IMG/VR virus record: IMGVR_UViG_3300035659_000016
Coordinates: 1 to 55,282 of that record
Direction: 5' to 3' (one strand)
DNA: 55,282 bases
From: a virus
Taxonomy: Duplodnaviria; Caudoviricetes
Made by a program: the position numbers and the translations under genes. Shown piece after piece: positions 19,798 through 53,501 of this stretch (the first letter of the stretch is position 1; every line of letters starts with the position of its first letter). The notes under the pieces were generated by a model. The model made no database searches. It saw nothing but the letters and a program-made list of their open reading frames with translations, and had not been told where the DNA came from.

Positions 19798-19809
19798 CTT
19801 CTATGCTCC

Positions 19810-20283: not shown

Positions 20284-20911
20284 TTTCCTTCTCCTTTCTG
20301 TGTGCGAGGAGTCTTGCCAACTCCGGTGGCGGTCTGCGTCTACGGCCCCCAATGTTGCTCATAAGGGGTGTAGGCTCGAAGTGGTACTGTGGTGGTTTGC
20401 CGTCTAGCAAGTTACAGTACTCTCTGACCCAATACTCCGAGGCCATCTGGTGCTCAGCGGTGACCAGATTGTGGTCGCGTGTCATAGTCGTCCCAGTGAG
20501 AATCGCACCCGCCCGCTCTAGCAGTTCACGCGAACGGATGAGGGGAAAGAAACTGACCTTCTTCCCTGCAGTAGCCAAGCGAATGGCTGGTACAGAGCAA
20601 CAGATGGCTGCGATCGGCTTGAGCACGCCGTCCGCTTCTACGACTAGACGCTGGACGTCCTTGTGGTACCACAGAGACTCGGTGTCTTTCATGTTCCCGG
20701 AAACGACCATTAGACCCTCGTAGTCCTGCATCCGCAGTGCGGAGCCCACGAGGGCGGCGACACGTACCTGATCACTCAGGTCTAGTTCATCGGCAATGAT
20801 CGGTTCAGTCGCTGCTACAACGAACGTGTGCCCGCGCTCAAGCAAGACATCCAAAGTCATCCACAGCTCGTGCCCGTTGAAGCGGCGGGCGCAGATGACT
20901 AGGACTTTCAT
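20267..20911 (-). CDS. DJ-1/PfpI family protein (class I glutamine amidotransferase-like fold)
   Basis: MKVLVI....F...EL, DYEGLMVVSG, KPIAAICC, GKKVS.F, LERAGA, DHNLVTA. Confidence 0.85.
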   Translation of the reverse strand: MKVLVICARRFNGHELWMTLDVLLERGHTFVVAATEPIIADELDLSDQVRVAALVGSALRMQDYEGLMVVSGNMKDTESLWYHKDVQRLVVEADGVLKPIAAICCSVPAIRLATAGKKVSFFPLIRSRELLERAGAILTGTTMTRDHNLVTAEHQMASEYWVREYCNLLDGKPPQYHFEPTPLMSNIGGRRRRPPPELARLLAHRKEKENVARK

Positions 20912-21315
20912 CGCGTGAACCCAGCCTTTTGTGCACGATGTCGCTTCACGGTCGTTGCTGACATCTCTGGGACTTCCCCCTCCACAGGGGGCAGAGGTGC
21001 GTCCTCGACCTTGGCTAGGCGGTCGATGTTCAGCTTGGCTGCCTTGGCTGGGGTCTTCGGGTCGGCATCCGTGCGTAGTAGGTAGAGCTGACCACCACGC
21101 GAGAAGAGTTTGACTGGCAAGCCGTGTGAGCGAATGTACGCCGATACCGACGACGTCAGACTCACCAGACTCTGTTGCATGCCGGTGCGATCGATCAGGA
21201 CCAACACGTACCCAGACTCAAGGAACTCCTTAAGAATGGGGTAACTCACACGTCCACGATGGCCCGCGACCAAATCAGGAATCGATGCGGGATCCACCGG
21301 TTTGAGCAATACCAT
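20908..21315 (-). CDS. Hypothetical protein inside the que cluster
   Basis: AGGAGGT RBS before ATG 21315; stop overlaps DJ-1 start. Confidence 0.65.
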   Translation of the reverse strand: MVLLKPVDPASIPDLVAGHRGRVSYPILKEFLESGYVLVLIDRTGMQQSLVSLTSSVSAYIRSHGLPVKLFSRGGQLYLLRTDADPKTPAKAAKLNIDRLAKVEDAPLPPVEGEVPEMSATTVKRHRAQKAGFTR

Positions 21316-21365
21316 TTTCCTTACCTCCTGTTGTTGTGGTACTGTGAGAGCACACACAACAAAAC

Positions 21366-22088
21366 CTAATTTTCGACGCCTGGGAGTCGGGGTTGGTTGG
21401 TCCCCTGAACCCACAAGGCGTCGCCGTTATAAACTGTGGGATCGGCCACCTTGGCCAACTCGAACGCTTCGTGACGCTCCACACAGGTACCACAGCGACC
21501 GCAGTGTGTCGAGCCACCTTTGTAACAACTCCACGTCAACTCGAAGGGAACATGCAAAGCGGCCCCCGCCTTTACAATAGCCGCCTTGGTGTCACGAATG
21601 AACGGAGTGCTGATGCGCACGGGTGGGTCAACCATACCCAGGTTGCCGAGTTGGAACGCATGCTCTAGGGTGTCCATGAAGTCAGGACGGCAGTCGGGAT
21701 AGATGGGATGGTCCCCTGCATGCACACCCACGAAGACGACCTCCGCCTTCTCAGCCACCGCCACGGCATACGCGATACTGAGAAAGACCGCATTGCGGTT
21801 CGGCACCACTGTGATGCGCATCGACGCATCGCGATAGTCGCCTTCAGGTACATCTATCGTGCGGTCTGTCAAGGCCGAACCGCCTAATAGAGCCGCGAGC
21901 GACTTGAGATCGACGACGTTGAGGGGGCACTCCAAGGCATTGCAAATCTGCCCTGCAGAACGAAGTTCACGATGGTGCCGCTGCCCGTAGTTGAAGGCCA
22001 GGGCGTGTACTCTATACCCCGCTTTCAAGGCGTAGTAGAGTGTCACGGTGGAGTCGATGCCTCCACTAGTGAGTACGATCGCTTTCAT
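21366..22088 (-). CDS. queC: 7-cyano-7-deazaguanine (preQ0) synthase
   Basis: SGGIDS PP-loop, NYGQRH, VPNRN, YPDCR, TWSCY...CGRCGTC. Confidence 0.97.
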   Translation of the reverse strand: MKAIVLTSGGIDSTVTLYYALKAGYRVHALAFNYGQRHHRELRSAGQICNALECPLNVVDLKSLAALLGGSALTDRTIDVPEGDYRDASMRITVVPNRNAVFLSIAYAVAVAEKAEVVFVGVHAGDHPIYPDCRPDFMDTLEHAFQLGNLGMVDPPVRISTPFIRDTKAAIVKAGAALHVPFELTWSCYKGGSTHCGRCGTCVERHEAFELAKVADPTVYNGDALWVQGTNQPRLPGVEN

Positions 22089-24600
22089 TTTTACCTCCAG
22101 TGCCTGCGTTGGAGATGACAATTTCAGTGGCGAGTGGCAGCTTGTCGGGCAAGTCTAAATCCGCTCGGCGCGCTTCTTCCAACGAGACTTTATACATCCA
22201 ATAAGTCGCCCCTTTGAGAGTGACCGCTGTGCGACACAGTATGTACTGCCCCACCTGGGGCTTCCTCGGATCGATCAGGCGCTCTTGTAACTGTGCCTTG
22301 AGTGCGGGTAGTTCCAACGCGTCGCGACCGGCACGACGTCGCTCCGTGGCCCACCACGTGTAGGCCGAAGAGATCTGAAAACCCATCGCCGCTTCCCTTG
22401 GAAACCACGCCGCCACATAACGAGGATGGTCGTTGGTAGCCATGTCGTTCACCAACGCTTCGATGAACTCGTCAGCCAACAATGAAGTGCGCCCCGACTT
22501 TTCGACGACATTGAACAATGTTTCCTCAAAGAGACTACGCACGTACTCTGGCGTCAGAAGGGGCTGCCGCAGCCCCAAGCTTTCCAACCACAGTGCTAGG
22601 TGAATCAGCCCATGCACCCCAATAGCCAAGTTCTGTCGCACACGGTCCGGCATGGGCTGGTTCGCGAAAGCGTCTTGAATCGATCGGAGGGCCTCGGTCC
22701 ACTTCAAGGGCGCCTGAAGCGTATACTGGATGTAGGCCGCCGCGATGCGGTTGATCCCCAGGGTATCGATTTGGCGATGTGCTTTCTCGGCTGGTGTACC
22801 TAGGTCGATGGTCTCGGGCATTAGCCGTACTTGCAAGACGCGCTCCTTGAGCGCCGGGTCTACTAACGCATCTTCGCCGTCGACGATCAACGGTGAAGTC
22901 AAGGGATACTCTTGTGTCGTCTGATCCGCTCTACCTCTAGCATCCCGGCCACTATCGTACGCTAGTAACAAATAACGTAGCAGGCGTGGGGTGCTATGCA
23001 ACCGAAACTCACTCAGTGAAACCGGCAAAGCGTTCGTCGCACCTAGCAAGGTCAGTAGGACGAAATTGGTTGTGCCACTGTCGTACGAACGCCCATCGAC
23101 AACCCCCAGTAGGGGCAGCAGCACACGAGTGATCGTAACTGTCTTACCACTACCTCTCGTGCCGAAGATGTTGAGAAGCGGGTAGCGCACATTCAGGTCC
23201 CACAACAGCGGCTTGAAGGGAGCTGAGAAAAGCCAGCCCAGTACGGGGCCCATCACCTCTGGACGATTCAGTTGCCATAGAAGTGGGAACAGTTGTCGTG
23301 CTAAGGCTTTCACTACGGTGGGCTCCACGGTGGCGTAGTGTGTGTGTGGTGCTTCGCGTTGCGCACTCATGTAGTGCACAGGACGTGCGTCGCCTTCGGT
23401 AATCTCCGCGGCTGAAAGGACCTGATCGGTACCCACCCAGTAGTTCTCGAAGCGCCCCAACACACGAGTGGCCTGGATCTTGGGCAACCCTTTGGCTAGG
23501 AGTTGTTGCATTAGGTATGGCAGCAGTGCCCGCAACTGGCGGTCACTGCCTAACCACTGTGCTGCGGCCTGTGGCATCTGGCGGTTGAGATCGCTCACGG
23601 AATTGAAAGCAATCTTGGTAAGCACCTGGCTGGGCCACACAAACCCACTCGCATGCAAAACCCCTAGGAGCGCGTCCACTGCATGTGCGTCGGTGTGCTC
23701 GATAAGGGCCTGCGGCTCAAACGTGAAAGTACTAACTGGTACCTTGTCACCCCGTAGCAAAACAAAGTATTGGTCGTTCTCCATAACGAAGGGCCCTGCT
23801 ACGCACGCGGCTCCGCCCCCAGCAGTCTTGGCTGCTCGTGCTGTCGCGCGCTTCAGTGTATGCTCCCAGTAGTTGCCCCCTTCCCGCATCTTGTTACCAC
23901 ACGGTGCAACAGCGAAGACCTGGGTAGTAGTGTCTACAGAAACCCCAGCGCTCAGCATTGCAGTCACAACGGCCCAATCGCGTTCCGAGCGACTGCGGTG
24001 CCCCGAGTTACCCGATGTGTTCACGGCGTGATGGATCTCCACCGGAATCGCCAGGGCAGCTTGCAAATCGCCCCACGTATAGCGGTTGTCTTCGGCGGTC
24101 ACCAGGTTGCACGGTTTGGGATGTTGGGGGTCTTTGAAGTTTGTCGTCCCTGGCACTCTTAGGATACGTGCAACATCGTGAACCTTTGTGTCGCCACCTA
24201 GCAAGGTTGCGGCTTGCGTCATCCAACCTTCTGCCGCCTCGAAGTCATCGGGGCCCAAGGCCTCTGTCAACAACCAATAGTAGTGATACCCGTTACCGGA
24301 GTCCACGACCAGCGATGGCGGCAACGCAAAAGGGGGAGGCTCACGTGTAGCGTCGACATCTATCCACAGAGACAGCAGACGGCTAACGTTGCGTTTGCTC
24401 CCACCCCCCTTGGCACCCCTTGGTGCCACACCGACGTAGAGGTGCCCTGTGCCCAGAGTAGCTGTCGCCGCTGTCGCTTCGGAAGGGGAATGCACGAAGT
24501 GTGCCTTCATCGTCTTCGAGGCCGGATTGGGTTGATGTCTGAGCTCAATCCTCTCCTTCGCCTTGATCCCTGCAAATAGTAACGAAAAAAAGTCTTCCAC
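22066..24600 (-). CDS. Primase-helicase: RepB-like AEP primase plus DUF927-like P-loop domain
   Basis: WIDVD, DSGNGYHYYW, ARILRVPGT.N.K, SRSERD; Walker A GTRGSGKT. Confidence 0.85.
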   Translation of the reverse strand: MEDFFSLLFAGIKAKERIELRHQPNPASKTMKAHFVHSPSEATAATATLGTGHLYVGVAPRGAKGGGSKRNVSRLLSLWIDVDATREPPPFALPPSLVVDSGNGYHYYWLLTEALGPDDFEAAEGWMTQAATLLGGDTKVHDVARILRVPGTTNFKDPQHPKPCNLVTAEDNRYTWGDLQAALAIPVEIHHAVNTSGNSGHRSRSERDWAVVTAMLSAGVSVDTTTQVFAVAPCGNKMREGGNYWEHTLKRATARAAKTAGGGAACVAGPFVMENDQYFVLLRGDKVPVSTFTFEPQALIEHTDAHAVDALLGVLHASGFVWPSQVLTKIAFNSVSDLNRQMPQAAAQWLGSDRQLRALLPYLMQQLLAKGLPKIQATRVLGRFENYWVGTDQVLSAAEITEGDARPVHYMSAQREAPHTHYATVEPTVVKALARQLFPLLWQLNRPEVMGPVLGWLFSAPFKPLLWDLNVRYPLLNIFGTRGSGKTVTITRVLLPLLGVVDGRSYDSGTTNFVLLTLLGATNALPVSLSEFRLHSTPRLLRYLLLAYDSGRDARGRADQTTQEYPLTSPLIVDGEDALVDPALKERVLQVRLMPETIDLGTPAEKAHRQIDTLGINRIAAAYIQYTLQAPLKWTEALRSIQDAFANQPMPDRVRQNLAIGVHGLIHLALWLESLGLRQPLLTPEYVRSLFEETLFNVVEKSGRTSLLADEFIEALVNDMATNDHPRYVAAWFPREAAMGFQISSAYTWWATERRRAGRDALELPALKAQLQERLIDPRKPQVGQYILCRTAVTLKGATYWMYKVSLEEARRADLDLPDKLPLATEIVISNAGTGGKNESDRTH

Positions 24601-25931: not shown

Positions 25932-25958
25932 CTTTGCCTCCTGAGCAATGATAACTCT

Positions 25959-25990
25959 ATTATAAAACACCAAGGTGAATAACAAATGAA
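25959..25990 (-). promoter_or_regulatory. Class-2 promoter: TTCAT-TTGTTA-TTCAC-N10-TATAAT
   Basis: Same architecture and spacing as 30078-30109. Confidence 0.65.
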
Positions 25991-26019
25991 AATAAGATGA
26001 GTATTTTCTAACACACCTC

Positions 26020-27099
26020 CTAGGGTCCGGGTTCCAATAGGGGAACGTACTGCCGATCCTGCCCCGCCGGTTGGTAGAGTGTCTTCAATAGAACCTCGTA
26101 ATTGTCCCCACGTGACATGGCAATGCAGGGCTCCCTAAAGCCACACAGGCGACAGCCCACCAAGTCGGGGGTGGGGTACAGAACGGGTTCGCTTAGCATC
26201 ATCCGAGCCAACTGGTGGATTCGTTGTTCCGCCTCACGTAGCTCATGCTCGTTGCGTGTCACCACGCGTCGCCACACAAACGGGTTCTCCATCCCACTGA
26301 ACTCCTTGTCCTTCAGGTCCGCGATGACAGTACGTAGCGAACCTGCCCTCTCCGGCCACTTCTTTTCTACCTCGGGCAGCAGTTCCTTCAGACTCAGCCA
26401 ATCGGTGACGGCGTTGCCAATGATCTTTCCGTTAGCGTTCGGCACCGCGGGTACCTTCTTGCGAATTAGGGTGTAAACAACGCCTCGCACAGTGTAGTCT
26501 TTCAGGATATGACTCGCGGCCCACATGTAGAAGGACGCCTGCTCTGCGAGTGTCAGGTTGTCATCCGCGAGTTGCGCCATCGTCTTGATCTCGTGGATGA
26601 AGACGTCGCGCGGGCTTGCAGATGCTCTGTAGGTGCAGAGGCCGTCGATCCGTCCTGAGTAGACCACCTTGGCCCCGTTAAACAATGCGTTGAAACCTTC
26701 GAGGGGGACAGTGAACGGGGTCTCCGTAGCTAGGGACTTGAAACTTTGCAACGGGTCGTTGAAAGACGACCACAGCACGTAATGACGTAGCATACCCGTG
26801 CCGAGTTCGAGGAGTTCGTCGTACTGCTCCGCAGTGAGTGCCGCAGCCCCCTTTCTAGCCCAAGCCTTGAAGACCTTTACGGGATCGGAGCCGCGGCGGT
26901 AGTAGGCCTCCAAGGCCTTGTGAACTCCTTCACCCAGCCACAACGGGCCCGCCGTAGTTAGTGGGCGCAGGTTGCGTTGCAATGGCGACGTAAAGTACCA
27001 CTGTCGACGGCACTTGCGGAACTGTGTCATGTCACTGTAGTGAATTTGAATCGCTTGGGGTTGGGTTGCTTCGAGTTGCTGTGCTTGCTCGTTTGTCAT
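26020..27099 (-). CDS. PD-(D/E)XK Cas4/RecB-like exonuclease
   Basis: N-terminal C.R.W, G..VH..LE, GRIDG...HEIKT, Q...Y, C-terminal CRLCGFREPC. Confidence 0.85.
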   Translation of the reverse strand: MTNEQAQQLEATQPQAIQIHYSDMTQFRKCRRQWYFTSPLQRNLRPLTTAGPLWLGEGVHKALEAYYRRGSDPVKVFKAWARKGAAALTAEQYDELLELGTGMLRHYVLWSSFNDPLQSFKSLATETPFTVPLEGFNALFNGAKVVYSGRIDGLCTYRASASPRDVFIHEIKTMAQLADDNLTLAEQASFYMWAASHILKDYTVRGVVYTLIRKKVPAVPNANGKIIGNAVTDWLSLKELLPEVEKKWPERAGSLRTVIADLKDKEFSGMENPFVWRRVVTRNEHELREAEQRIHQLARMMLSEPVLYPTPDLVGCRLCGFREPCIAMSRGDNYEVLLKTLYQPAGQDRQYVPLLEPGP

Positions 27100-28562
27100 T
27101 TTCCTTGTCTCCTTACCATTGCGGTGGTGGCGAGGTTCTGGTAGAGCTGCTTGACCAGAGTCTCGTCGTTCACCTTGGTTTTGTTCTTCAGATTGGTCCA
27201 GATGACCTCATCGATTGTGTCGCGCGCTAGGATAAATGTGACCTGGACAGAACTGTGCTTGGAAGTGCCTCTGTGGATGCGGTTCACCAACTGCTCCAAC
27301 TGAATCGAGGACCACGGCAAGTCAGTGAGGATGAGGTGCTGTGCCATCTCTAGGTTGATGCCCTCGCCCCCCGTCTGTGCCGTCATCACCAATGTGTTCA
27401 CCTTGGGGTCGTGACGAAAGGCATTTACTGTTCCCGCGAGTTGCAGTTGTGCCATGCCGCCGACAAGGGAAACCACCCCCCGCCCGAGAGCCTCAAGCTT
27501 GGGCACCACCCGGTTGGCGACCTGCCGAAAGTAGGAGGCCACAACCCCTTTGTACTCAGGGGGCCAATTTCCTATCAACTCCATAACGGTGTCGACCTTG
27601 GTGGACACTTGCGGACCCCCAAACACGGCGGCACAGGTGGCGAGTTGTTTGAGTCGTGTCATCTGTGCCAAAGCGATGGGCGCGACAACCGTTGTGTTCG
27701 CGTCTAAGTAGGCGAGCATTGCGTTGGCCATCTCCAAGTACCACGTCCGTTCCTGGGTCGAGAGGTCCACCCACAATTCACGCCGCACCAGGCGGGGCAG
27801 TTGCGGTAGCACGTCCTGTTTGAGACGCCGTAGGCTCCAATAAGATAACAAGTTCTTTAGGGCCTTGACCTCTGCGGGATTGGGACACACGTAGGCGAAG
27901 CGGGTAAAGTAGTTCTGTTCATAGATACAGAAGCGTCGAGCGAAGGCCCAGAAACTCGCGAACCCGTTAGGCTGCATCCAGCGAAACATGGGCCACAGTT
28001 CGTAAGGCTTACCGTCCATGGGTGTCGCCGTTAGGGCCCACTGAATCGGCGCTTGCAGGGCGAGCAGCGCTCGTGTGTACGAAGACCTACGGTCGCGAAA
28101 GTGGTGTGCTTCGTCGGCAACCACTGCGGCCCAGGGAATGGAGCGCAACACAGGAAGCACAGGGTAGGTAGGCCCTTTGCGCGGGATCGGCTTGCCGGTC
28201 GCTTTGTCTTTGTGGCGCGTGGTGGTACTCACGGAAAGCGCTTCGCGATTCAGCAACACCCACCCGTGCCCGTCACTAAGCACTGCAGCCAGCCGCTCGC
28301 GACGTGTGGGTCCTGACCTGCCTAGCGTAATAATGTTCTCGGAGAGGTTGGGGGCCCAAAGCCGAATAGTGTCTGCCCATTCTCCCATTAAAGCTCGGGA
28401 GCACAGAACCAACTTAGGTCCCTTAACGCGCAAGCGTTCCAGAGCAGTAACAACCTGCACGGTCTTGCCGAGCCCCAAGTCATCGAAGAGTAGTCCGTGC
28501 GGGTGAGTCATCAACCACTGCACGCCGTCTTCCTGGAACGGCTTCCAGAGTTGTGGTGTCAC
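27096..28562 (-). CDS. SNF2-family helicase
   Basis: DDLGLGKT, DEAH, LTATP, LRRLK.DV...LP, GGEGINL, Q...RIHR. Confidence 0.92.
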   Translation of the reverse strand: MTPQLWKPFQEDGVQWLMTHPHGLLFDDLGLGKTVQVVTALERLRVKGPKLVLCSRALMGEWADTIRLWAPNLSENIITLGRSGPTRRERLAAVLSDGHGWVLLNREALSVSTTTRHKDKATGKPIPRKGPTYPVLPVLRSIPWAAVVADEAHHFRDRRSSYTRALLALQAPIQWALTATPMDGKPYELWPMFRWMQPNGFASFWAFARRFCIYEQNYFTRFAYVCPNPAEVKALKNLLSYWSLRRLKQDVLPQLPRLVRRELWVDLSTQERTWYLEMANAMLAYLDANTTVVAPIALAQMTRLKQLATCAAVFGGPQVSTKVDTVMELIGNWPPEYKGVVASYFRQVANRVVPKLEALGRGVVSLVGGMAQLQLAGTVNAFRHDPKVNTLVMTAQTGGEGINLEMAQHLILTDLPWSSIQLEQLVNRIHRGTSKHSSVQVTFILARDTIDEVIWTNLKNKTKVNDETLVKQLYQNLATTAMVRRQGK

Positions 28563-28819
28563 TAGGACTCCTGAGTTGGCGTCGCGACCTCCCGACGTAC
28601 CACCGTACCGACGTACGGCTCTGATAGAGAAACAGGAGGCTCGTCGGTGTGTAGGTGCAACGTAGTGGGCCCCATTCGGATGGTCTTGCTCCAGTACTTG
28701 TGTCCGTGGATTACGCTAGCGTTCCCCCCCACGGAGGGGAAACTGTCAAACTGTCGGCGCGACAGGTCGCTAAGACTGATCGAGCATCCCTGGTTCACTG
28801 AGATCGAAAATGTGGTCAT
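28562..28819 (-). CDS. Hypothetical protein
   Basis: AAGGAG RBS; tiles the operon. Confidence 0.5.
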   Translation of the reverse strand: MTTFSISVNQGCSISLSDLSRRQFDSFPSVGGNASVIHGHKYWSKTIRMGPTTLHLHTDEPPVSLSEPYVGTVVRREVATPTQES

Positions 28820-28980
28820 GGTTCGTTCTCCTTGTCGTCGTCGAGCTGGGCCTGTAGTTCATCAAAGGCCATTTGGTCGGCTAGACACTCGGGACAAAGG
28901 GTCTCGTCATCCTGTGGCGTGAAGAAGACACGGCACTCCGAGCAGCGGATCATTTTCTTGGTCTTCTTTGGCTTGGCCAT
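28816..28980 (-). CDS. 54-aa zinc-ribbon protein (CSEC...CPEC)
   Basis: MAKPKKTKKMIRCSECRVFFTPQDDETLCPECLADQMAF...; overlaps both neighbours; not in the ORF track. Confidence 0.7.
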   Translation of the reverse strand: MAKPKKTKKMIRCSECRVFFTPQDDETLCPECLADQMAFDELQAQLDDDKENEP

Positions 28981-29411
28981 CATTTACCCCTCCGCTTCTG
29001 GAACTCCGCGAGTCCCTCAGCCGTAAAGAGCCACACGCCAGTCGCATTCGAAGACCCTGGGACGTTCCCGCTCATCGCGAGTTTGCGTAGGTACTGGCGA
29101 TGCAGCCCGACTAGGGTCGCCGCGGCCCGTATCCCATAGGTTCCGTCTGCCGCTGGGCCGTCTGAGGGAGGGCGCAGAGGTGAGGCTGTGGCTCTGTGGC
29201 GCATGCTGGAGGGCGGTAGCCAATGCTTCGGTCCTCGATTCTTTTCAGGGATGGGTTGGTCGCTGAGACTCTCCTCGGGGATCCACGCCCCAATTTTCTT
29301 GAGGGGGAAGAAGACATCATAGAGTTTCACATCGGCTTCCAATCGGTGACCCCGAACCTTGCCCTCGCCGTAGTGGCGATGGTACACCATCTGCCGTAGA
29401 TTGAATGACAT
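28980..29411 (-). CDS. SH3/KOW-like N-domain plus excisionase-type HTH_17 protein
   Basis: VYHRHYGEGKV; YGIRAAATLVGLHRQYLRKLAMSG...G.WLF. Confidence 0.7.
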   Translation of the reverse strand: MSFNLRQMVYHRHYGEGKVRGHRLEADVKLYDVFFPLKKIGAWIPEESLSDQPIPEKNRGPKHWLPPSSMRHRATASPLRPPSDGPAADGTYGIRAAATLVGLHRQYLRKLAMSGNVPGSSNATGVWLFTAEGLAEFQKRRGK

Positions 29412-29441
29412 TTGTCGTGTCTCCTGATAAAAGAGATAGAG

Positions 29442-29483
29442 ACGGATCCGTTGATTGTTTTGGGATCAGATCAACGGATCCGT
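29442..29483. terminator. 14-bp inverted repeat after the 29494-29784 gene
   Basis: acggatccgttgat ... atcaacggatccgt. Confidence 0.55.
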
Positions 29484-29493
29484 TCGGCGAAGC

Positions 29494-29784
<291 letters not shown>

Positions 29785-29829
29785 TTCTGTTCACCTCCTT
29801 TCGGGTTAGGATTGTCGAACGAAATTGGA

Positions 29830-30071
29830 TTGCAGCGCACTCGGCAGACTATTGTCAGCACACTACGCCGATACGCCAGGTTTCTGATGTAGCAAGGCGT
29901 ATGTTTGGCCCACCGAGTGCGGAGGCGCCGCCGCTCGCCTGTTGTGATGAGCAGGGGCAGCTCAGCAGTCACTTGACCTAGGCCTTCCTGCCACCTGAGA
30001 CGAACGACGGCGCCAGTAAGTAAGGCCGCCCGCGCTCGCTCGAGAAGGGAGGACAGGAAGCCCTTACCTAC
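29830..30071 (-). ncRNA. Candidate structured RNA / long 5' leader with loop-loop pseudoknot
   Basis: Five helices of 7-17 bp, four with G-U pairs valid only on the - strand; starts 7 nt after a TATAAT. Confidence 0.65.
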
Positions 30072-30077
30072 ACCCCT

Positions 30078-30109
30078 ATTATAGTGGGTGAAAGTGAATA
30101 ACAGGTGAA
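30078..30109 (-). promoter_or_regulatory. Class-2 promoter: TTCAC-CTGTTA-TTCAC-N10-TATAAT
   Basis: Matches 25959-25990. Confidence 0.65.
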
Positions 30110-30116
30110 TGTAAGG

Positions 30117-30392
30117 TTAGAACTTTCTCACTCTCTTCCGGTTCCAAAAGATGGGCCGGCCACACACAAGGCTACGTGAGCGCGACTGTTCCTCGGCAGC
30201 CACAATGGTTTTGTAGTTGAAGGGTCCCTTTGCGAACTCGTTGTGTCGGAAGAGACCCTTCTCCACAATGACAGAACCGTCGACACTTACCCAGATGGAC
30301 GTGGCCCCCCTGAAGAGGCGCTTTAGGAAGGCCACGTCGTTGTCCGTCCGATGTTGTCCCAAGGAGTCCCAGAGCGGATCGCTAGGCATCAC
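30117..30392 (-). CDS. Hypothetical protein
   Basis: GGGGAG RBS; overlaps upstream stop. Confidence 0.5.
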   Translation of the reverse strand: MMPSDPLWDSLGQHRTDNDVAFLKRLFRGATSIWVSVDGSVIVEKGLFRHNEFAKGPFNYKTIVAAEEQSRSRSLVCGRPIFWNRKRVRKF

Positions 30393-30634
30393 AACAACTC
30401 CCCGTTCACGAATAGGCTCACCTGACAGAACTCTTCTACTAGGCGGAACGAAGAGTCTTCTAGTGGGGCACGCAGAGCCTCATGCAGGTTTCGTATCTGC
30501 GCACGCTTCCAGGCTGCTCGGGCCCCTGGCGTGTACTCCCGGAATCTCTCGGTGAAGGCGGGATCCGTCGGGGCTGTCACAAAGCACTTGATGACCACTT
30601 CACAGGTTGGTGCATTCATCGAATCTCCCCTCAC
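30389..30634 (-). CDS. Hypothetical protein
   Basis: Tiles the operon. Confidence 0.45.
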   Translation of the reverse strand: MRGDSMNAPTCEVVIKCFVTAPTDPAFTERFREYTPGARAAWKRAQIRNLHEALRAPLEDSSFRLVEEFCQVSLFVNGELL

Positions 30635-30906
30635 CAGGGAACGCCGGTAGCAGGCCTCTCGGACTCGCGAGGGGCCTCATCCTTGAGTAGCGCTGCGACG
30701 GCTCGACAGAACTGCAACAGGGTCGCAACCGGAACTTGTGCCAAGATTGGGTAACGGCCCCCTCGGGGTCCAAAGCCGACGAGGCTGACTGTGCCCTCGG
30801 CGACATCGATTGCTATCTCGACACGCTCGACGCGACGTGTGGCTTCGTGGTACTTGTTCTGGGCGACCGTGACGGTCCCCTGCATGGGCAAACTTGTGTC
30901 TTGCAT
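30631..30906 (-). CDS. Hypothetical protein
   Basis: AGGAGG RBS directly after TopIB. Confidence 0.55.
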   Translation of the reverse strand: MQDTSLPMQGTVTVAQNKYHEATRRVERVEIAIDVAEGTVSLVGFGPRGGRYPILAQVPVATLLQFCRAVAALLKDEAPRESERPATGVPW

Positions 30907-30909
30907 GGT

Positions 30910-32319
30910 CTAACCTCCTTCCACTGTAGCAAGGGCCCAGGCAAACTTTGCCCGGAGCGCTTTGCTGTAAATCTTCAACCAAGACCCTGTTGGGTCCCAG
31001 TCGACGAACACACGGGGGTCAATGTAGGACTTCAGCGACGTGCCGAGATTGTAGTCTTGTGCGGCGACTAGGAACTCTTTCTCGCGGCTGGGTTGCTTCT
31101 TGGCGAGCCGCTCTTCCCAGTTCTTGGGCAGTGTGCGACGATGATTCAACCGCTGCGCTGCGGCTAAGTTGGCGTACTTCGCTGTTAGCACAGTGTCGCC
31201 TTTCAGGTCCCGCCCTTGAGTAGGTCCGCTACATCCCTTCAAGAACTCGCGGGCCGCTGCCGTGCCGTGCATCGTGCGGAATGTCTTGGCTGTCAACCCC
31301 CCCATCTGTGCTTTCAGGAAGCGGTTGATGTCCTGAGCACTCACGTGTGGGAACAATGGCTCGTCGCCCTGAGCCGAGTCGAGTCGCGTGACGATCGCGT
31401 TGAAGATCGCTCGCGGTGGAATGAACGTCACTTCGAGCCTCACACTGTCCTTGCCCAAGAAGTCCAACGACACCTCTTGGCTGTCGAGTTCGTAACTCAC
31501 GTGCTCGCATCGCAATGTGCAAACGCCTACTGTGTCGGCTGCGTCCTCGCCCTTCTCGTCGCCGACGCGCAGGGCGAGATTGTCAAGCAAGTACATCGCG
31601 GTGCGAAACTCCGGAGAGTATAGGCCCGACGCATACAACTCGCGAATACGCTCGATGTCCCTTGTGAGTGCGAGTGCCTTGTCGTACTTGGCTTTGTCCT
31701 TGCTTTGGCGTGGCGCTGCGGTCTCGGCGACCCACAGGTACTTGCGACCGTGCTGACCGAGTGGTTTGGGCCAACTAGCAATCCAGTACTGGTCACGCAT
31801 CTCGACGATGTGACGCCACTTCCCCAGTGGGATCGGTGCCTTGGCGTCCAAGTTGAGTGTGACGTCTTCTGCCGTGATGCGATCTTTCCAACGACCACGC
31901 AACGGGTGGTCGCCACGACCGATGAAGATGCCCGGCGGCTCGATGCCGTACTGACAGGGTGTCTTGACCCCATCAATTGTAGCAAAACCAAAGTTGGCCT
32001 TGGTTGCCTGCTGTCGCATCTTGCGGAGCTTGCGTTCTTCGGGCGACAGCTCCTTCAACGTTGGCGGCAACTTAATGACTAGGTCGAACGGCCAGTCACG
32101 TAGCTCACGGTCGCTCGCCTTCGACATCATGTTGAGGTCGTGTACGAAGTTGGTCTTGAAGACCTTGTCCTTGCGGCGTTCTTCGGGCTGGCGCCACCAA
32201 GCGACGAGCATCTCTTCCGCTAGGGGCGACAACCACGACTGGCCCGTAGCCTTGAACGGCTCTGGAAAGACGACGCCGTTGTGTCGGAATGTCTTCCATG
32301 GCTGTGTCATTTGTCTCAC
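30910..32319 (-). CDS. top1: Type IB DNA topoisomerase, large eukaryote/Thaumarchaeota-like form
   Basis: WKTFRHNGVVFP, EPPGIFIGRGDHP, KYDKA..L, ALRVGDEK...ADTVG.CTLR.EH, LDFLGKDS, GLTAKTFRT, NHRR, NLGTSLKSYIDPR, KFAWA. Confidence 0.95.
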   Translation of the reverse strand: MRQMTQPWKTFRHNGVVFPEPFKATGQSWLSPLAEEMLVAWWRQPEERRKDKVFKTNFVHDLNMMSKASDRELRDWPFDLVIKLPPTLKELSPEERKLRKMRQQATKANFGFATIDGVKTPCQYGIEPPGIFIGRGDHPLRGRWKDRITAEDVTLNLDAKAPIPLGKWRHIVEMRDQYWIASWPKPLGQHGRKYLWVAETAAPRQSKDKAKYDKALALTRDIERIRELYASGLYSPEFRTAMYLLDNLALRVGDEKGEDAADTVGVCTLRCEHVSYELDSQEVSLDFLGKDSVRLEVTFIPPRAIFNAIVTRLDSAQGDEPLFPHVSAQDINRFLKAQMGGLTAKTFRTMHGTAAAREFLKGCSGPTQGRDLKGDTVLTAKYANLAAAQRLNHRRTLPKNWEERLAKKQPSREKEFLVAAQDYNLGTSLKSYIDPRVFVDWDPTGSWLKIYSKALRAKFAWALATVEGG

Positions 32320-33349: not shown

Positions 33350-33428
33350 GGGCTGATTGACACGATGTCCAGATGGAATGTAACTCGCTTGGCGTTCATG
33401 CTGTGTCCTCCTTTCATTTTACAAACTA

Positions 33429-33458
33429 ATTATACTACAAGACAGGTGTCTTTTTCAC
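33429..33458 (-). promoter_or_regulatory. Class-1 promoter GTGAAA-N18-TATAAT with GACACCTGTC box in the spacer
   Basis: One of four related copies. Confidence 0.7.
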
Positions 33459-33515
33459 TGGGGACAACCTTAAAGTTTTGATTCAAATTAGACTGTCTGT
33501 GTGCTAAAGAGACCA

Positions 33516-33554: not shown

Positions 33555-33962
33555 TCACGCTGCGGGCTCGGGTAGGAGCTCGACGAAACCGCTGGCGTCG
33601 CTTGGCTCGGTCGTGACGACCACGGCCCCCTGGACGAATCCTTTGTCTTCCAGATCGGGCGTAGCAACCGGCACCTTGGGCTGGCGCGGCTTGCGGGTCT
33701 TGCGCTGCTTCGGTGCGTTGCCGGGCGAGTCGATGTTCGCCGTGACAGCGCCGTAGGTCGGTGCCTGCGCCTTGCGTGCGTCGCGGGTCGTCTTGTACTC
33801 CGTGAGGGACGCGACCGAAATCATTGTCCGGTTGTCCTCTTTCACGGTGTCCAAGCGGCGCTCCCAGAGCAACTTGCGGACTCTGTGGACGGAGACGCCC
33901 AGGAAGTCTTGTGCTTCCTTAACCGACATGTAGCTCTTCGCGGCTGACAGTTTCTTCGACAT
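33555..33962 (-). CDS. HTH_17 DNA-binding protein, paralog A (normal composition)
   Basis: YMSVKEAQDFLGVSVHRVRKLLWERRLD; AAGGAGG RBS. Confidence 0.85.
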   Translation of the reverse strand: MSKKLSAAKSYMSVKEAQDFLGVSVHRVRKLLWERRLDTVKEDNRTMISVASLTEYKTTRDARKAQAPTYGAVTANIDSPGNAPKQRKTRKPRQPKVPVATPDLEDKGFVQGAVVVTTEPSDASGFVELLPEPAA

Positions 33963-34671: not shown

Positions 34672-34732
34672 CTCCTTTCATGCCCAGATTGTTGTGTGTC
34701 TCTATAGGCAATGGTTGTCTTTCTTCAATTTT

Positions 34733-34762
34733 ATTATACTACAGGACAGGTGTCGTTTGCAC
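34733..34762 (-). promoter_or_regulatory. Class-1 promoter GTGCAA-N18-TATAAT
   Basis: Spacer acgacacctgtcctgtag. Confidence 0.75.
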
Positions 34763-34846
34763 TACGACACACCTTAAATTTTTTGTTCAGTTGTCGGCTG
34801 GCAGTCAGGGCGCCGTTGGCATGGCGCCCCCTGGTTCGTGATCCGA

Positions 34847-35393: not shown

Positions 35394-35431
35394 TGTGTCC
35401 TCCTTAGAAGGATTGTTAAGGTTCTAATTAT

Positions 35432-35461
35432 ATTATATTACAGGACACCGGTCGTTTGCAA
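35432..35461 (-). promoter_or_regulatory. Class-1 promoter TTGCAA-N18-TATAAT
   Basis: Spacer acgaccggtgtcctgtaa. Confidence 0.75.
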
Positions 35462-35504
35462 GGGGTCGCAGTGTGCCAATTTTGTTGTCGAGTGGCGCGC
35501 TTGG

Positions 35505-35872: not shown

Positions 35873-36381
35873 CGTCGATTTTTCGTGTTCAGGAGCACTG
35901 TTTTTGTGTTCAGGGGCGATACCCTAGATGGTCTTCGTCGCATCCGAACAAGCCTCGTTGTCACAGAATCTAGTACTACCACGACACGAAGGCTGACCGG
36001 ACACCCAGCGGTGCGTCGCATGTAGCTGCAGGGTCGTGGCCGGAGGAAACCCCACGGCGACTCCCCCTGTGCCTCCACCGCGGGGCTGGGCCAGACTGGA
36101 CAGGCTGATGTAGCAGCATGTCGGGTCACGGAAGGACGTAGCGGCTAGGGCGTGTCCAGATTCGACGTAGCGGCATGTCCGGACGTAACAACGTGGCACG
36201 TAGCGACCCTGGCGTGTCCAGATGGGACACAGGACGTACTGGGCAGGGCCAGACACGCCAGGGGAGATTGCGGGGGCGAGGCGGGACACGACTACTCATA
36301 GGCAGGTGGGGCCTCGGACTCTTTCTTCAGAGGAGACGCCAGCGTGTCGTGGCGCGCTGGCGCTCCTGTCTCCTGTCGCGA

Positions 36382-36708
36382 CTAGGCTACTTTGTCGTAG
36401 TCTTCGATGAACCAGTCTCCGATGTCGACATTGTGTCTCTTCGCGAACTTTTGAATCGCTCCGAGATACGCTTCGATGTTTGTCGGCGCCTGCACCTTGT
36501 CGTACATAGCGTGCAGTTCGACGAAGACTTCGTTCCGCTTCTTTGTCGGATCATCGGTGTTATGTGTCGGCAGTGTGATGTGTATTGCTTCGGTGAATTG
36601 TCCGCTCGAGAACGACCCGTAGGCGTTGCCTAACTTGAATGCGTCGGCTGTCGATAGGTGTTTCATGTCTCGCTTAACCTCCTTGTAGACTTGTTGTGTT
36701 GTCTTCAA
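36382..36708 (-). CDS. Hypothetical early protein (start probably ATG ~36666)
   Basis: AAGGAGGT RBS before MKHL; follows promoter 36713. Confidence 0.6.
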   Translation of the reverse strand: MKTTQQVYKEVKRDMKHLSTADAFKLGNAYGSFSSGQFTEAIHITLPTHNTDDPTKKRNEVFVELHAMYDKVQAPTNIEAYLGAIQKFAKRHNVDIGDWFIEDYDKVA

Positions 36709-36712
36709 TTAT

Positions 36713-36742
36713 ATTATATTACAGAACACCTGTCGTTTGCAA
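36713..36742 (-). promoter_or_regulatory. Class-1 promoter TTGCAA-N18-TATAAT
   Basis: Spacer acgacaggtgttctgtaa. Confidence 0.75.
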
Positions 36743-37012
36743 GGGGTCCTTCCCCGCCAATTTTTGGCACGTAGCGACCGTGTCGTAGCGGGACACGACG
36801 TAGTGGCACGTAGCGACTGGGTCGGGGTCGAACACGACGCAGCGGCATGTCGGCGCAGCGGCATGTCGAGACAGGACACATTGCGTCGGGGGCAGGGCCA
36901 GATTCGATGTAGCGACTGTGGCACGTAGCGACCGTGTCTTATCCAGACAGGACAAGGGGACCCCCCAATACGAACAGTACTTGTTGTTCAATACGAACAG
37001 TACTTGTTAGTC

Positions 37013-37045
37013 AAAAAAAAACTTGACAACGTTGTTGTCAAGTTT
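37013..37045 (-). terminator. Intrinsic terminator closing the island transcript
   Basis: 12-bp stem aaacttgacaac/gttgtcaagttt ending in a run of 9 T on the - strand. Confidence 0.85.
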
Positions 37046-37056
37046 CTTTTAGTGTG

Positions 37057-37134
37057 TTAGAAGATTCTCACACAACTGAAGAATACAGTAAACACACTAA
37101 ACACGAACAAGATCGCTAACACCAACTCTTTCAT
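37057..37134 (-). CDS. 25-aa hydrophobic peptide MKELVLAILFVFSVFTVFFSCVRIF
   Basis: Purine-rich leader, TM-like, lies between two hairpins; not in the ORF track. Confidence 0.6.
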   Translation of the reverse strand: MKELVLAILFVFSVFTVFFSCVRIF

Positions 37135-37198
37135 TTTCTTCACTCTTTCTTGTAAAGTAGTTGATGTCTTTCGACATCAACTACTTCACAAACGTTTG

Positions 37199-37453
37199 TC
37201 AACTTTCTTGAACTTCTAGTTGTGAAGATTCGTTCACAACTTCCTCAAGTTTGTTGCTTGTGTGGTAGGTAGGAGACTTGACCATTCGGTTGTCTCTTAC
37301 CTTCTTGTACTTTGTGAGAGATTCGATCGTAATCATTGTACGACCATCGACCTTTTGTGAGTCAAGTTTCCTCTCCCACAAAAGTTTACGAACTCGATGA
37401 ACCGAAACTCCCAAAAACACCATACTCTCTTTCACATTCAAAAACTTCTTCAT
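37199..37453 (-). CDS. HTH_17 DNA-binding protein, paralog B (alanine-free)
   Basis: FLNVKESMVFLGVSVHRVRKLLWERKLD; AAGGAG RBS; no Ala in 84 aa. Confidence 0.85.
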   Translation of the reverse strand: MKKFLNVKESMVFLGVSVHRVRKLLWERKLDSQKVDGRTMITIESLTKYKKVRDNRMVKSPTYHTSNKLEEVVNESSQLEVQES

Positions 37454-37556
37454 CTCGAACTCCTTTTTGAACTTTTTGATGAAACGAGTTTGAATGAGAC
37501 CAAGTTGGTCTCATTCATTCAATTTCATATTTGTTAAAGTTCAATTCTACAAACTC

Positions 37557-37585
37557 ATCATACAACAAGTTCAATAAAAAGTCAA
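37557..37585 (-). promoter_or_regulatory. Near-consensus sigma70 promoter TTGACT-N17-TATGAT
   Basis: Direct reading; drives paralog B. Confidence 0.85.
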
Positions 37586-37848
37586 CACATATTCACATAT
37601 TCGTTGATGTCTATATGTTTGTTATATTTCAAACTAACACTAATTGTTTGTGTTGGTGAATACTAATTGTTAGTCGGTACTAACATAATGAGACTAGGTT
37701 AGTCTCGTTTAACGTTTGATGTTAGTACATACTAATTGTTAGTATGTACTAACAATTTTGAATAGTCCACCCTACCCCTCAAAAAAGGCACGATCAGGTT
37801 CCACGGACGCTACGCTACTTTTCCACCCGATAGGGTCCCCTCGATACG

Positions 37849-37927
37849 CGAATCCGAACCTAATTTTCGAATCGAAATCAACCTGCTGGTTGCTGGCCAC
37901 ACGAATCCGAACCTAATTTTCGAATCG
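37849..37927. repeat. Two perfect 26-bp direct repeats CGAATCCGAACCTAATTTTCGAATCG, 53-bp period
   Basis: 37849-37874 and 37902-37927, just upstream of the terS promoter. Confidence 0.9.
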
Positions 37928-37936
37928 CCCCGACTC

Positions 37937-37966
37937 TTGCAAGGGCTCCCCGAAGGGTTGTATAAT
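37937..37966 (+). promoter_or_regulatory. Late-operon promoter TTGCAA-N18-TATAAT
   Basis: ttgcaagggctccccgaagggttgtataat upstream of terS. Confidence 0.7.
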
Positions 37967-38003
37967 GAGGTAGACTTAGCGGATGTAATCAAGGACACAC
38001 ACA

Positions 38004-45886: not shown

Positions 45887-45962
45887 AAGGTAAAAGTAAA
45901 GGAGATCAGAACCAAAATGGGGGTTGCTCGACAAAGCAACCCCCATTAACCCAAAGGAGCAA

Positions 45963-53493: not shown

Positions 53494-53501
53494 CTCGAAG
53501 A

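What the first reader, a model, noticed from the sequence alone, without database searches (positions are those of the whole stretch)
29830..30071. Candidate novel pseudoknotted RNA (~240 nt) ahead of a histone-like HTH gene
Seen on the - strand, starting 7 nt after TATAAT: P1 30071-30062/30025-30016 (GUAGGUAAGG/CCUUACUUAC); P2 30014-29998/29940-29924 (17 bp, 3 G-U); a 9-bp loop-loop pairing 30060-30052/29992-29984 that crosses P1 and P2; P3 29920-29908/29849-29837 (13 bp, 3 G-U) enclosing P4 29902-29896/29877-29871. The 5' end can alternatively pair with 29886-29897 (CCUUGCUACAUC), which excludes P1 and P4. Imperfections within these helices are G-U on this strand, as expected for RNA-level selection. 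I cannot match it to a known family. Inference: a switch-like leader, ribozyme or protein-decoy RNA.
Basis: partly seen in the sequence, partly recalled or inferred. Interest (0 to 1): 0.75.

Follow-up and report, generated by a model that had tools for sequence, protein, structure and literature searches.

The report
Three-hairpin leader RNA in a phage
A 240-base gap between two genes of an uncultured sediment phage is predicted to fold, right after a promoter, into three unusually stable RNA hairpins that most likely form a structured leader for the next gene, but no relative could be found to confirm this.

Summary
The helices are in the sequence as described. The - strand RNA folds far better than shuffles: z -5.54, 0 of 200 as stable. 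The + strand gives z -1.48. It is one of the two most structured 240-nt stretches of this 55-kb phage record.

The fold is three independent hairpins, H1 to H3. The 9-bp "pseudoknot" complementarity is at chance level: 18.75% of 2000 shuffles reach it. The "alternative 5' pairing" is only 4+4 bp.

The TATAAT lies in an ~80-90-nt promoter block with a second copy at 26 kb. The core motif occurs 2 times in the window and 0 times in 100 shuffles. H1 starts at the inferred +1. No terminator separates H3 from the strong ribosome site of an HTH_17 gene with a lysine-rich tail.

Best reading: a structured 5' leader acting in cis, as an mRNA stabiliser or processing element. No Rfam family matches.

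No homologue was found in any collection, so covariation is untested, and no RNA run holds the stretch. This is a credible but unverified singleton of moderate interest.

The parts
30073..30150 (-). Promoter block. The -10 TATAAT is at 30083-30078. A conserved box TGTTATTCAC is at 30103-30094, about -31 to -22. Further conserved DNA reaches into the end of the upstream ORF.
   Evidence: It aligns with a second copy at 25957-26040; the 110-column alignment of the two ~100-nt stretches has a mean column identity of 77%. The core motif has 2 exact copies in the window and 0 in 100 shuffles. The generic sigma-70 scan finds no -35 here. The best -35-like hexamer sits at a 15-nt spacing (read).
30016..30071 (-). 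Hairpin H1, 56 nt and 23 bp, interrupted by three 1x1 loops and one bulge. The 5' arm is pyrimidine-rich. Its first base is the inferred transcription start.
   Evidence: MFE -26.1 kcal/mol; z -2.62 on the - strand and -0.40 on the + strand. P1 was checked. The start site is inferred from the -10 spacing only.
29924..30014 (-). Hairpin H2, 91 nt. A 17-bp G+C-rich base with 3 G-U is extended by 4+5+3+4 bp. An 11-nt bulge lies on the 3' side.
   Evidence: MFE -54.7 kcal/mol; z -5.95 on the - strand and -1.36 on the + strand; the MFE structure holds 52% of the ensemble. P2 was checked.
29836..29921 (-). Hairpin H3, 86 nt. It has a 9-bp perfect inverted repeat at its base, then G-U pairs, and encloses P4 and a small apical stem.
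   Evidence: MFE -38.6 kcal/mol; z -4.36 on the - strand and -3.46 on the + strand, so it is nearly symmetric. The inverted repeat is listed. A 157-nt contig of run X4 matches 29857-29923 with 6 other letters and 1 gap, then diverges at the H2/H3 boundary.
29785..29835 (-). Unremarkable 3' part of the leader, with the Shine-Dalgarno AAGGAGGUG at 29800-29792. There is no U-tract terminator.
   Evidence: The local fold has z -1.56. The AGGA of the SD and the AUG are mostly paired in the ensemble, but the opening cost of 12.2 kcal/mol is rank 20 of 78 starts. No terminator-like site lies on the - strand here.
29494..29784 (-). Downstream gene of 96 aa: an HTH_17 domain, then a Lys/Ala/Gly-rich basic tail and an acidic end.
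   Evidence: Pfam PF12728, E 1.7e-9; translation. The only full-length look-alike is P0121, 41% identical with the same architecture.
25957..26040 (-). Paralogous promoter block, followed after about 20 nt by the ribosome site and ATG (25931) of an AAA_24 gene. This is the same promoter without the hairpin leader.

Best explanation
The stretch is the promoter-proximal part of a ~287-nt 5' leader. Transcription is inferred to start at about 30071, and the AUG is at 29784. The leader belongs to the operon that begins with the HTH_17 gene carrying a basic tail.

Transcription starts from a phage promoter of a second class: a perfect -10, a conserved box near -30 and no proper -35. This class is probably activator-dependent and 'middle'. 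The same promoter drives the replication and preQ0 module at 26 kb.

The nascent RNA folds into three independent, very stable hairpins. The first begins at +1.

I read them as a cis-acting mRNA element, not a switch. A 5'-terminal hairpin plus two long, nearly continuous helices would shield the message from 5'-end-dependent decay. In read-through transcripts from the upstream early promoters they would serve as double-strand-specific (RNase III-type) processing and stability sites. Together with a very strong ribosome site this would secure high output of an abundant DNA-binding protein.

Shown: the helices, their statistical excess, the strand bias, the duplicated promoter block, and the absence of a terminator, an ORF or a known family.

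Inferred: the transcription start, transcription itself, and the stabiliser or processing role.
For: Structure:
- z -5.54, 0 of 200 shuffles as stable.
- The three hairpins persist when the leader is extended to 317 nt: z -5.02, 0 of 100.
- It is in the top two of the genome-wide scan.

RNA rather than DNA:
- With RNA parameters the - strand gives z -5.54 against -1.48 for the + strand.
- With DNA parameters the values are only -2.97 and -1.92.
- 15 of 88 pairs are G-U although the stretch has no base skew.
- The favoured strand is the coding strand of all genes from 13.9 to 37.4 kb.

Promoter:
- The duplicated block and motif occur 2 times in the window and 0 times in shuffles.
- At 26 kb the same block is followed directly by a gene.

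Leader, not a separate RNA:
- No terminator-like site lies between H3 and the gene.
- This phage does have a canonical hairpin-plus-U9 terminator elsewhere.
- There is no AUG in the 287 nt, where 3.5 are expected.
- The SD is the strongest in my set of 78 starts.

Not a switch:
- H2's MFE structure holds 52% of its ensemble.
- The alternative pairing is weak.

Helix lengths: 23 bp in H1. In H2, a 21-nt run on the 5' strand pairs without a break, which fits double-strand-specific nucleases (read; the enzyme requirements are recalled, not tested).
Against: - There is no comparative support at all. No homologue of the RNA, of the HTH gene or of the upstream ORF could be fetched.
- The strains seen in four runs show no difference in the hairpin region, so nothing covaries.
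- Transcription, the start site and any cleavage are unobserved.
- The -35 is poor, and the generic promoter scan does not call the site.
- A strand difference in MFE of this size occurs in 24 of 1377 windows.
- H3 folds almost as well on the + strand. Part of it turns up in another sequence context, which fits a DNA-level or mobile palindrome as well as an RNA.
- The stabiliser or processing role rests on analogy only.
- The host, and so its RNases, are unknown.
Confidence: 0.4

Rival explanations
1. It is a protein- or ligand-responsive regulatory leader. The hairpins would be bound by a phage protein, most simply the HTH protein encoded just downstream, as an autoregulator that acts on its own mRNA. 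Alternatively a small molecule would bind them. Either way translation or elongation would be controlled.
For: - The arrangement is promoter, then hairpins in the 5' UTR, then an HTH gene.
- It is the arrangement described for the phage anti-CRISPR regulators Aca2 and Aca1, whose HTH domains bind hairpins in their own 5' UTRs (PMC13551039, passages read).
- The AGGA of the SD and the AUG are mostly paired in the predicted ensemble.
- The phage carries preQ0 synthesis genes, so a metabolite link is conceivable.
Against: - The cost of opening the ribosome site is ordinary: 12.2 against 10.1 +/- 3.9 kcal/mol, rank 20 of 78.
- No strong mutually exclusive structure exists.
- No inverted repeat in the promoter DNA resembles the RNA stems.
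- No riboswitch family matches.
- The hairpins lie 35 nt or more upstream of the SD and are far larger than known HTH-bound RNA motifs.
Confidence: 0.2
2. It is a stand-alone or processed trans-acting RNA: a decoy, a ribozyme or a small regulatory RNA of a new class, released from the leader.
For: - The size and stability are typical of stable non-coding RNAs. Each hairpin is significant on its own.
- It has its own promoter.
- It matches no known family.
- Part of H3 occurs in a second context.
Against: - No terminator or defined 3' end lies before the gene.
- No tertiary-contact signal rises above chance.
- No second copy exists in the window, and no copy in 86 fetched loci or in 5 whole viral records.
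- Nothing suggests a catalytic core.
Confidence: 0.1
3. It is a DNA-level element. The palindromes would work as single-stranded DNA hairpins (a priming or single-strand initiation signal) or as protein-binding or mobile palindromes, not as RNA.
For: - H3 is nearly strand-symmetric and has a perfect 9-bp inverted repeat.
- A contig in run X4 carries an H3-like piece joined to different DNA exactly at the H2/H3 border.
- The stretch lies inside the replication gene cluster.
Against: - With DNA parameters the excess is modest: z -2.97 and -1.92.
- H1 and H2 depend on G-U pairs, and their excess over shuffles is nearly lost on the other strand.
- A much better origin candidate lies at 36.1-38 kb, with six copies of a ~37-nt repeat, AT-rich DNA and the GC-skew turn.
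Confidence: 0.1
4. The spacer has no selected function. It would be a chance-structured G+C-rich gap left by module shuffling between two gene cassettes.
For: - It is a singleton with no conservation evidence.
- It was picked by eye from 55 kb.
- One other locus folds as well in the scan.
Against: - A residual of -4.2 sd among about 460 independent half-overlapping windows is not expected by chance.
- Three separate hairpins are each significant.
- Phage genomes of this kind are tightly packed, and most neighbouring genes here overlap or abut.
- There is no AUG where 3.5 are expected.
Confidence: 0.2

Closest known systems
5'-terminal stabiliser hairpins and RNase III processing hairpins of phage and bacterial mRNAs (for example the intercistronic RNase III sites of T7 early mRNA and the ompA-type 5' stem-loops). 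Recalled from general knowledge; no paper was read.
   Same: Long, imperfect but nearly continuous helices lie in an intergenic gap of a long same-strand phage operon. One hairpin starts at the inferred 5' end. They are cis-acting and need no conserved primary sequence.
   Different: There are three large hairpins (56, 91 and 86 nt) in tandem, which is more than those examples have. Cleavage, 5' ends and the host RNases are all unknown here. No sequence or model match was possible because these elements have no Rfam-type family that hit.
Aca2 and Aca1 5'-UTR hairpin motifs of phage acr-aca operons (PMC13551039; abstract and passages read)
   Same: A phage promoter is followed by hairpins in the 5' UTR and then an operon that encodes a small HTH regulator. 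In those systems the HTH binds both the promoter DNA and the RNA hairpins.
   Different: Those motifs are one or two short hairpins close to the ribosome site, and they resemble the DNA operator. Here the hairpins are much larger and lie 35 nt or more from the SD. The promoter has no matching inverted repeat. The protein is an HTH_17 with a basic tail, not a known Aca family (no PADLOC or Aca test was run). Binding is untested.
Candidate structured RNAs of viruses and phages found by comparative genomics of IMG/VR (Fremin et al. 2023, PMC10690425; abstract and outline read)
   Same: Same data source: the window is an IMG/VR record. Same kind of object: cis-regulatory structures consistently placed upstream of genes.
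   Different: That catalogue needs several homologues that covary, and this locus has none that I could find.
Processive antitermination RNAs placed just after phage promoters (HK022 put, lambda nut). Recalled; not read.
   Same: Stem-loops are transcribed immediately downstream of a promoter at the head of a long operon.
   Different: Terminator-like sites downstream are not in excess: 21 found against 17.3 +/- 3.6 in shuffles. No sequence comparison was made. The sizes differ.

Membership tests
Any Rfam 15 family (riboswitches, ribozymes, phage RNAs, large ornate RNAs, 6S-like RNAs and others) | Covariance-model score at or above the family's gathering score | tested here: not met
   There were 0 matches over the whole window at gathering score. 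The permissive scans of 1101 nt and 331 nt gave only E >= 0.6 hits to animal miRNA or lncRNA models, 7.9-18.3 bits against cut-offs of 50-90. ARAGORN found no tRNA or tmRNA.
Intrinsic (Rho-independent) terminator or attenuator | A G+C-rich hairpin with a short loop, followed directly by a U-tract | tested here: not met
   No terminator-like site lies on the - strand in 28500-31500. H1 to H3 are followed by no U run. The same phage has a canonical 13-bp stem plus U9 near 37.04 kb.
   The 9-bp pairing exists. However, 18.75% of 2000 shuffles reach a run of 9 or more. Both partners are paired locally in the MFE fold. Covariation is untestable because there are no homologues.
Riboswitch or other switch-like leader | Two mutually exclusive structures of similar stability, one of which controls a terminator or the ribosome site | tested here: not met
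   The alternative 5' pairing is only 4+4 bp. H2's MFE structure holds 52% of its ensemble. The ribosome-site opening cost is rank 20 of 78. There is no terminator.
Riboswitch or other switch-like leader | Ligand-dependent structural change | not testable with these tools
   This needs in-line or SHAPE probing with candidate ligands.
5' leader (5' UTR) of the HTH operon | A promoter upstream, no terminator and no ORF between it and the start codon, on the same strand as the gene | tested here: met
   The promoter block is duplicated in the genome. There is no terminator. No ORF of 30 aa or more lies in 29973-30116, and the only overlapping - strand ORF is an Arg/Cys-rich 67-aa frame that runs into the HTH start. 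There is no AUG in the 287 nt. The start site itself is inferred.
5' leader (5' UTR) of the HTH operon | Observed transcript with a 5' end at about 30071 | not testable with these tools
   None of the 5 listed runs is on record as RNA, and Logan contigs cannot show RNA ends.
RNase III-type processing site or 5' stabiliser hairpin | About two turns of nearly continuous double helix; for a stabiliser, a hairpin at the very 5' end | tested here: inconclusive
   H1 has 23 bp with three 1x1 loops and starts at the inferred +1. In H2 a 21-nt run on the 5' strand pairs without a break. The length criterion is recalled. Cleavage and half-life were not tested.
Aca-type HTH-bound 5'-UTR RNA motif | RNA hairpin that resembles the regulator's DNA operator in the promoter and lies next to the ribosome site | tested here: not met
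   No inverted repeat in 30073-30170 and no repeat shared between promoter and hairpins was found. The hairpins end 35 nt before the SD.

The most novel reading that the evidence does not exclude
The three hairpins are the first seen member of a new class of modular phage RNA. It would be a stable ~240-nt transcript, or units processed from it, that acts beyond its own mRNA, for example as a decoy for a host nuclease, a defence sensor or the phage's own basic HTH protein. Single hairpin modules such as H3 would be exchanged between phages, as hinted by the X4 contig that carries an H3-like piece in a different context and breaks exactly at the H2/H3 border.
Probability: 0.12. Interest if true: 0.65.

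Novelty: new member of a known kind. Interest (0 to 1): 0.36.

Why it matters
If it is real, it is an unusually large and stable leader in a phage lineage with almost no sequenced relatives. The nearest SNF2 helicase is 40% identical. The HTH gene and the upstream ORF are orphans among 5.8 billion clusters.

The phage also carries a eukaryotic-type topoisomerase IB and a preQ0 (7-deazaguanine) pathway. The leader would show how such a phage secures or times expression of a histone-like DNA-binding protein.

The paired promoters give a natural with-and-without comparison for experiments: the same promoter at 26 kb lacks the leader.

As it stands this is a single in-silico case without covariation or expression data, so its value is as a well-defined candidate, not a result.

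Tried and rejected
Searches for homologues:
- blastn (distant mode) of 29400-30500 against 50,697 phage records: no match.
- HTH protein by tblastn against phages: none. Against viral contigs: 57 pattern hits, 0 relatives. Against metagenome contigs: 599 pattern hits, 0 relatives. Against 5.8 billion protein clusters: only itself.
- phmmer of the HTH protein against 1.84 billion representatives: 82 hits at E <= 0.001, and all but the query itself are generic HTH_17 matches.
- P0121 has the same architecture. Its locus was not found in viral contigs or in metagenome contigs.
- Upstream ORF91: only itself.
- SNF2 helicase: nearest hits are 40% and 38% identical. Their contigs are in no collection open to me.
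- The SNF2 alignment A1 brought 59 viral loci, all <= 29% identical, and 10 genomic loci, all <= 34%.
- The single-protein scans with SNF2 and with the DNA polymerase found none.
- Topoisomerase: 2 loci at 34-35% identity. One of them, L002, is not syntenic.
- SNF2 by tblastn against phages: 942 records, all below 60% identity and at best 28.5%, mostly actinobacteriophages.

Covariance model R1, built from the single sequence plus its MFE structure:
- Over the window plus 71 loci (791 kb) the best foreign hit is 19.5 bits.
- 0 of 5 whole viral records match.
- Over the 15 loci found with the H3-arm pattern the best hit is 14 bits. Fifteen pattern hits are about what chance gives.
- Promoter motif in viral contigs: 0.

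Expression:
- No RNA holder is listed among the 5 runs.

Variation:
- Contigs of runs X3 and X4 covering 29752-30241 and 29978-30128 are identical to the window.
- Outside a variable patch at 29206-29421 the strains differ by at most about 1 letter per contig, so nothing can be learned about covariation.

Ideas dropped:
- Ribosome-site sequestration as a designed feature: the cost is ordinary. My start-site set for that test is crude.
- Repetition of the bases around the -10 elsewhere in the genome, as a family of phage-specific promoters would show: the 14-nt word around it has 6 matches at <= 3 mismatches against 2.16 expected, none convincing.
- Antitermination: terminator-like sites are not in excess.
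- Origin of replication: a better candidate lies at 36-38 kb.
- Protein-coding: no credible ORF.

Tools that gave nothing:
- Supplements of PMC10690425 are closed, so I could not see whether this IMG/VR locus is in that catalogue.

Full report
**Context**

- The window is a whole IMG/VR virus record of 55,282 bp.
- Its first and last 207 nt are identical, so the genome is probably complete and circularly assembled.
- Genes run on the + strand at 1-13.8 kb and at 38-55 kb. The terminase is at 38.6 kb.
- Genes run on the - strand from 37.4 kb down to 13.9 kb.
- The - strand block holds:
  - a eukaryotic-type topoisomerase IB at 30910-32319 (Pfam E 1e-48);
  - an SNF2 helicase, an exonuclease and a primase;
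  - the preQ0 genes FolE, QueE, QueD and QueC;
  - a family-A DNA polymerase.
- Most genes in this block abut or overlap. The 332-nt gap at 29785-30116 is an exception, and the finding lies in it.
- The gap lies between an orphan 91-aa ORF and a 96-aa gene with an HTH_17 domain (E 1.7e-9), a Lys/Ala/Gly-rich tail and an acidic end.

**The observation**

| Helix | Length | G-U pairs |
|---|---|---|
| P1 | 10 bp | 1 |
| P2 | 17 bp | 3 |
| P3 | 13 bp | 3 |
| P4 | 7 bp | 0 |
| Loop-loop pairing | 9 bp | 1 |

RNAfold joins the helices into three independent hairpins: H1 (30071-30016), H2 (30014-29924) and H3 (29921-29836).

| Fold | MFE (kcal/mol) | z-score | Shuffles as stable |
|---|---|---|---|
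| 242 nt, - strand, RNA | -122.5 | -5.54 | 0 of 200 |
| 242 nt, + strand, RNA | -96.1 | -1.48 | 13 of 200 |
| 317 nt (to 29755), - strand, RNA | -138.9 | -5.02 | 0 of 100 |
| 242 nt, - strand, DNA | -54.5 | -2.97 | 1 of 200 |
| 242 nt, + strand, DNA | -49.4 | -1.92 | 7 of 200 |

The shuffle mean for the 242-nt - strand RNA is -94.8 +/- 5 kcal/mol. The three hairpins persist in the 317-nt fold.

Each hairpin alone:

| Hairpin | z, - strand | z, + strand |
|---|---|---|
| H1 | -2.62 | -0.40 |
| H2 | -5.95 | -1.36 |
| H3 | -4.36 | -3.46 |

- 15 of the 88 pairs are G-U, although the stretch has no base skew.
  - The exact window lies 4.2 sd below the GC regression.
  - The only comparable locus is at 37.0 kb, at -4.39 sd.
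- The raw strand difference in MFE, -26.4 kcal/mol, is matched in size by 24 of 1377 windows. Taken alone it is suggestive, not extreme.

**What did not hold**

- The "pseudoknot" is not above chance.
  - 18.75% of 2000 shuffles of the two loop regions contain a complementary run of at least 9.
  - 97.75% give an equal or better duplex energy.
  - Both partners are paired locally in the MFE fold.
- The "alternative 5' pairing" is 4+4 bp around an internal loop.
- H2's MFE structure holds 52% of its ensemble.
- I see no sign of a switch.

**Promoter and transcript**

- TATAAT sits at 30083-30078, 7 nt before the first base of H1.
- It is part of an ~80-90-nt block that recurs at 25957-26040. 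The 110-column alignment of the two ~100-nt stretches has a mean column identity of 77%.
- The core, a 10-nt box near -30 plus TATAATAG, has 2 exact copies in the window and none in 100 shuffles.
- The similarity runs into the ends of two unrelated upstream ORFs, in different reading frames (read). It is therefore DNA-level conservation.
- The best -35-like hexamer lies at a 15-nt spacing, and the generic sigma-70 scan does not call the site.
- In contrast, three to four copies of a consensus-like TTGCAA-N17-TATAAT promoter lie at 33.4-36.7 kb.
- I infer two promoter classes: early host-type promoters, and a second, probably activator-dependent class at 30.1 and 26.0 kb.
- At 26.0 kb the block is followed after about 20 nt by the ribosome site and ATG of an AAA_24 gene. 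At 30.1 kb it is followed by the three hairpins.
- Between H3 and the gene there is no terminator-like site. This phage does have a textbook 13-bp hairpin plus U9 terminator near 37.04 kb.
- The 287-nt leader holds no AUG, where 3.5 are expected.
- It ends in the strongest Shine-Dalgarno sequence of my 78-start set.
- The most economical reading is a 5' leader.
- The AGGA of the SD and the AUG are predicted to be mostly paired. The opening cost of 12.2 kcal/mol is ordinary: mean 10.1 +/- 3.9, rank 20 of 78.

**Known families**

- Rfam 15 gives nothing at gathering score over the whole window.
- Two permissive scans give only noise.
- ARAGORN finds no tRNA or tmRNA.

**Relatives**

This is where the case stays open.

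- Neither DNA nor protein searches found a usable relative.
- The nearest SNF2 proteins are 40% and 38% identical. They sit on contigs that I could not fetch.
- A covariance model of the single sequence found nothing in the 71 loci, the 5 whole viral records or the 15 pattern-derived loci.
- Five sediment-metagenome runs hold the stretch, and none is on record as RNA.
- Laid contigs from two other studies are identical across the hairpins. The strains differ almost only in a variable patch at 29206-29421, so there is no variation to test.
- One 157-nt contig in run X4 matches 29857-29923, most of H3, with 6 differences and one gap. It then diverges exactly at the H2/H3 border. This hints that H3 is a module that also exists elsewhere. 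I could not see its letters.

**Mechanism**

I commit to a cis-acting structured leader that stabilises or processes the message, with confidence 0.4.

- A hairpin starts at +1.
- Two further long helices are of the kind that double-strand-specific RNases cut and that block exonucleases.
- They sit at the head of an operon whose first product is a small basic DNA-binding protein, likely needed in quantity.
- This rests on analogy with phage T7 RNase III sites and with 5' stabiliser hairpins (recalled, not read).

The rivals, with my confidence in each:

| Rival | Confidence | Main point |
|---|---|---|
| Protein- or ligand-responsive leader | 0.2 | The Aca2/Aca1 precedent of HTH proteins binding hairpins in their own 5' UTR is in PMC13551039 (passages read) |
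| Trans-acting RNA | 0.1 | Stable, own promoter, no known family |
| DNA-level palindromes | 0.1 | Best argued for H3 |
| No selected function | 0.2 | Singleton, no conservation evidence |

**Verdict**

- The structure is real in the sequence and statistically unusual.
- The promoter context is good.
- The pseudoknot and switch claims fail.
- Novelty is limited to a new, unclassified member of the known kind "structured phage mRNA leader".

Noticed in passing
window 1-207 and 55076-55282: The two ends of the record are identical over 207 nt. The contig is therefore probably a complete, circularly assembled or terminally redundant genome of about 55,075 bp, although IMG/VR lists it as linear and 83% complete.
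   Followed up: no
window 36131-36954 and 37000-38000: Six copies of a ~37-nt repeat that shares the core GGCACGTAGCGAC lie next to a 38% G+C stretch. That stretch holds two 35-nt near-palindromes (37651-37685 and 37720-37754) and the turn of the cumulative GC skew. This is a candidate origin or control region between the divergent gene blocks.
   Followed up: partly
window 36960-37260, - strand: This is the most structured stretch of the genome (z -5.99, 0 of 100 shuffles). It has a 20-bp perfect hairpin with a GAAA loop and a canonical terminator of a 13-bp stem plus U9. No Rfam family matches it.
   Followed up: partly
window 33423-33464, 34727-34768, 35426-35467, 36707-36748: Four copies of a 42-nt block read, on the - strand, as a near-consensus TTGCAA-N17-TATAAT promoter with a conserved spacer. 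They are likely early promoters.
   Followed up: partly
window 18473-22121, - strand: There is a full preQ0 pathway: GTP cyclohydrolase I, a radical-SAM QueE-like gene, a PTPS/QueD gene and QueC. A DJ-1/PfpI-type protein and DUF3310 lie with it. The phage probably replaces guanine in its DNA with a 7-deazaguanine.
   Followed up: no
window 30910-32319, - strand: A phage-borne topoisomerase IB of the eukaryotic type has all three Pfam domains: N-terminal DNA-binding, catalytic core and C-terminal (E 1e-48, 1e-32 and 2e-11). The nearest viral relatives are only 34-35% identical.
   Followed up: no
window 29206-29421 (inside the 143-aa ORF 28980-29411): This is a variable patch between strains: 14 differences plus 2 indels in 151 nt (run X3) and 9 in 151 nt (run X4). 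The flanking contigs differ by 0-1 letters.
   Followed up: no
window 29762-29800: The SD and start-codon region of the HTH gene matches, with 5 differences in 39 nt, a short contig with the same flanks in all 4 runs laid. Its depth is 84.7 in X3, far above the phage's. It may be a translation-start region of an abundant organism, possibly the host.
   Followed up: no
window 28980-29411, 29494-29784, 33555-33962, 37199-37453, - strand: The - strand block has four separate HTH_17-domain genes. Those at 33.6 and 37.2 kb lie in the early region and are candidates for the activator of the second promoter class.
   Followed up: no
window 53161-53560 (+ strand) and 45721-46040 (- strand): These are further 240-nt windows with strong folding residuals, -3.0 to -3.7 sd. 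Both lie in regions covered by long ORFs.
   Followed up: no
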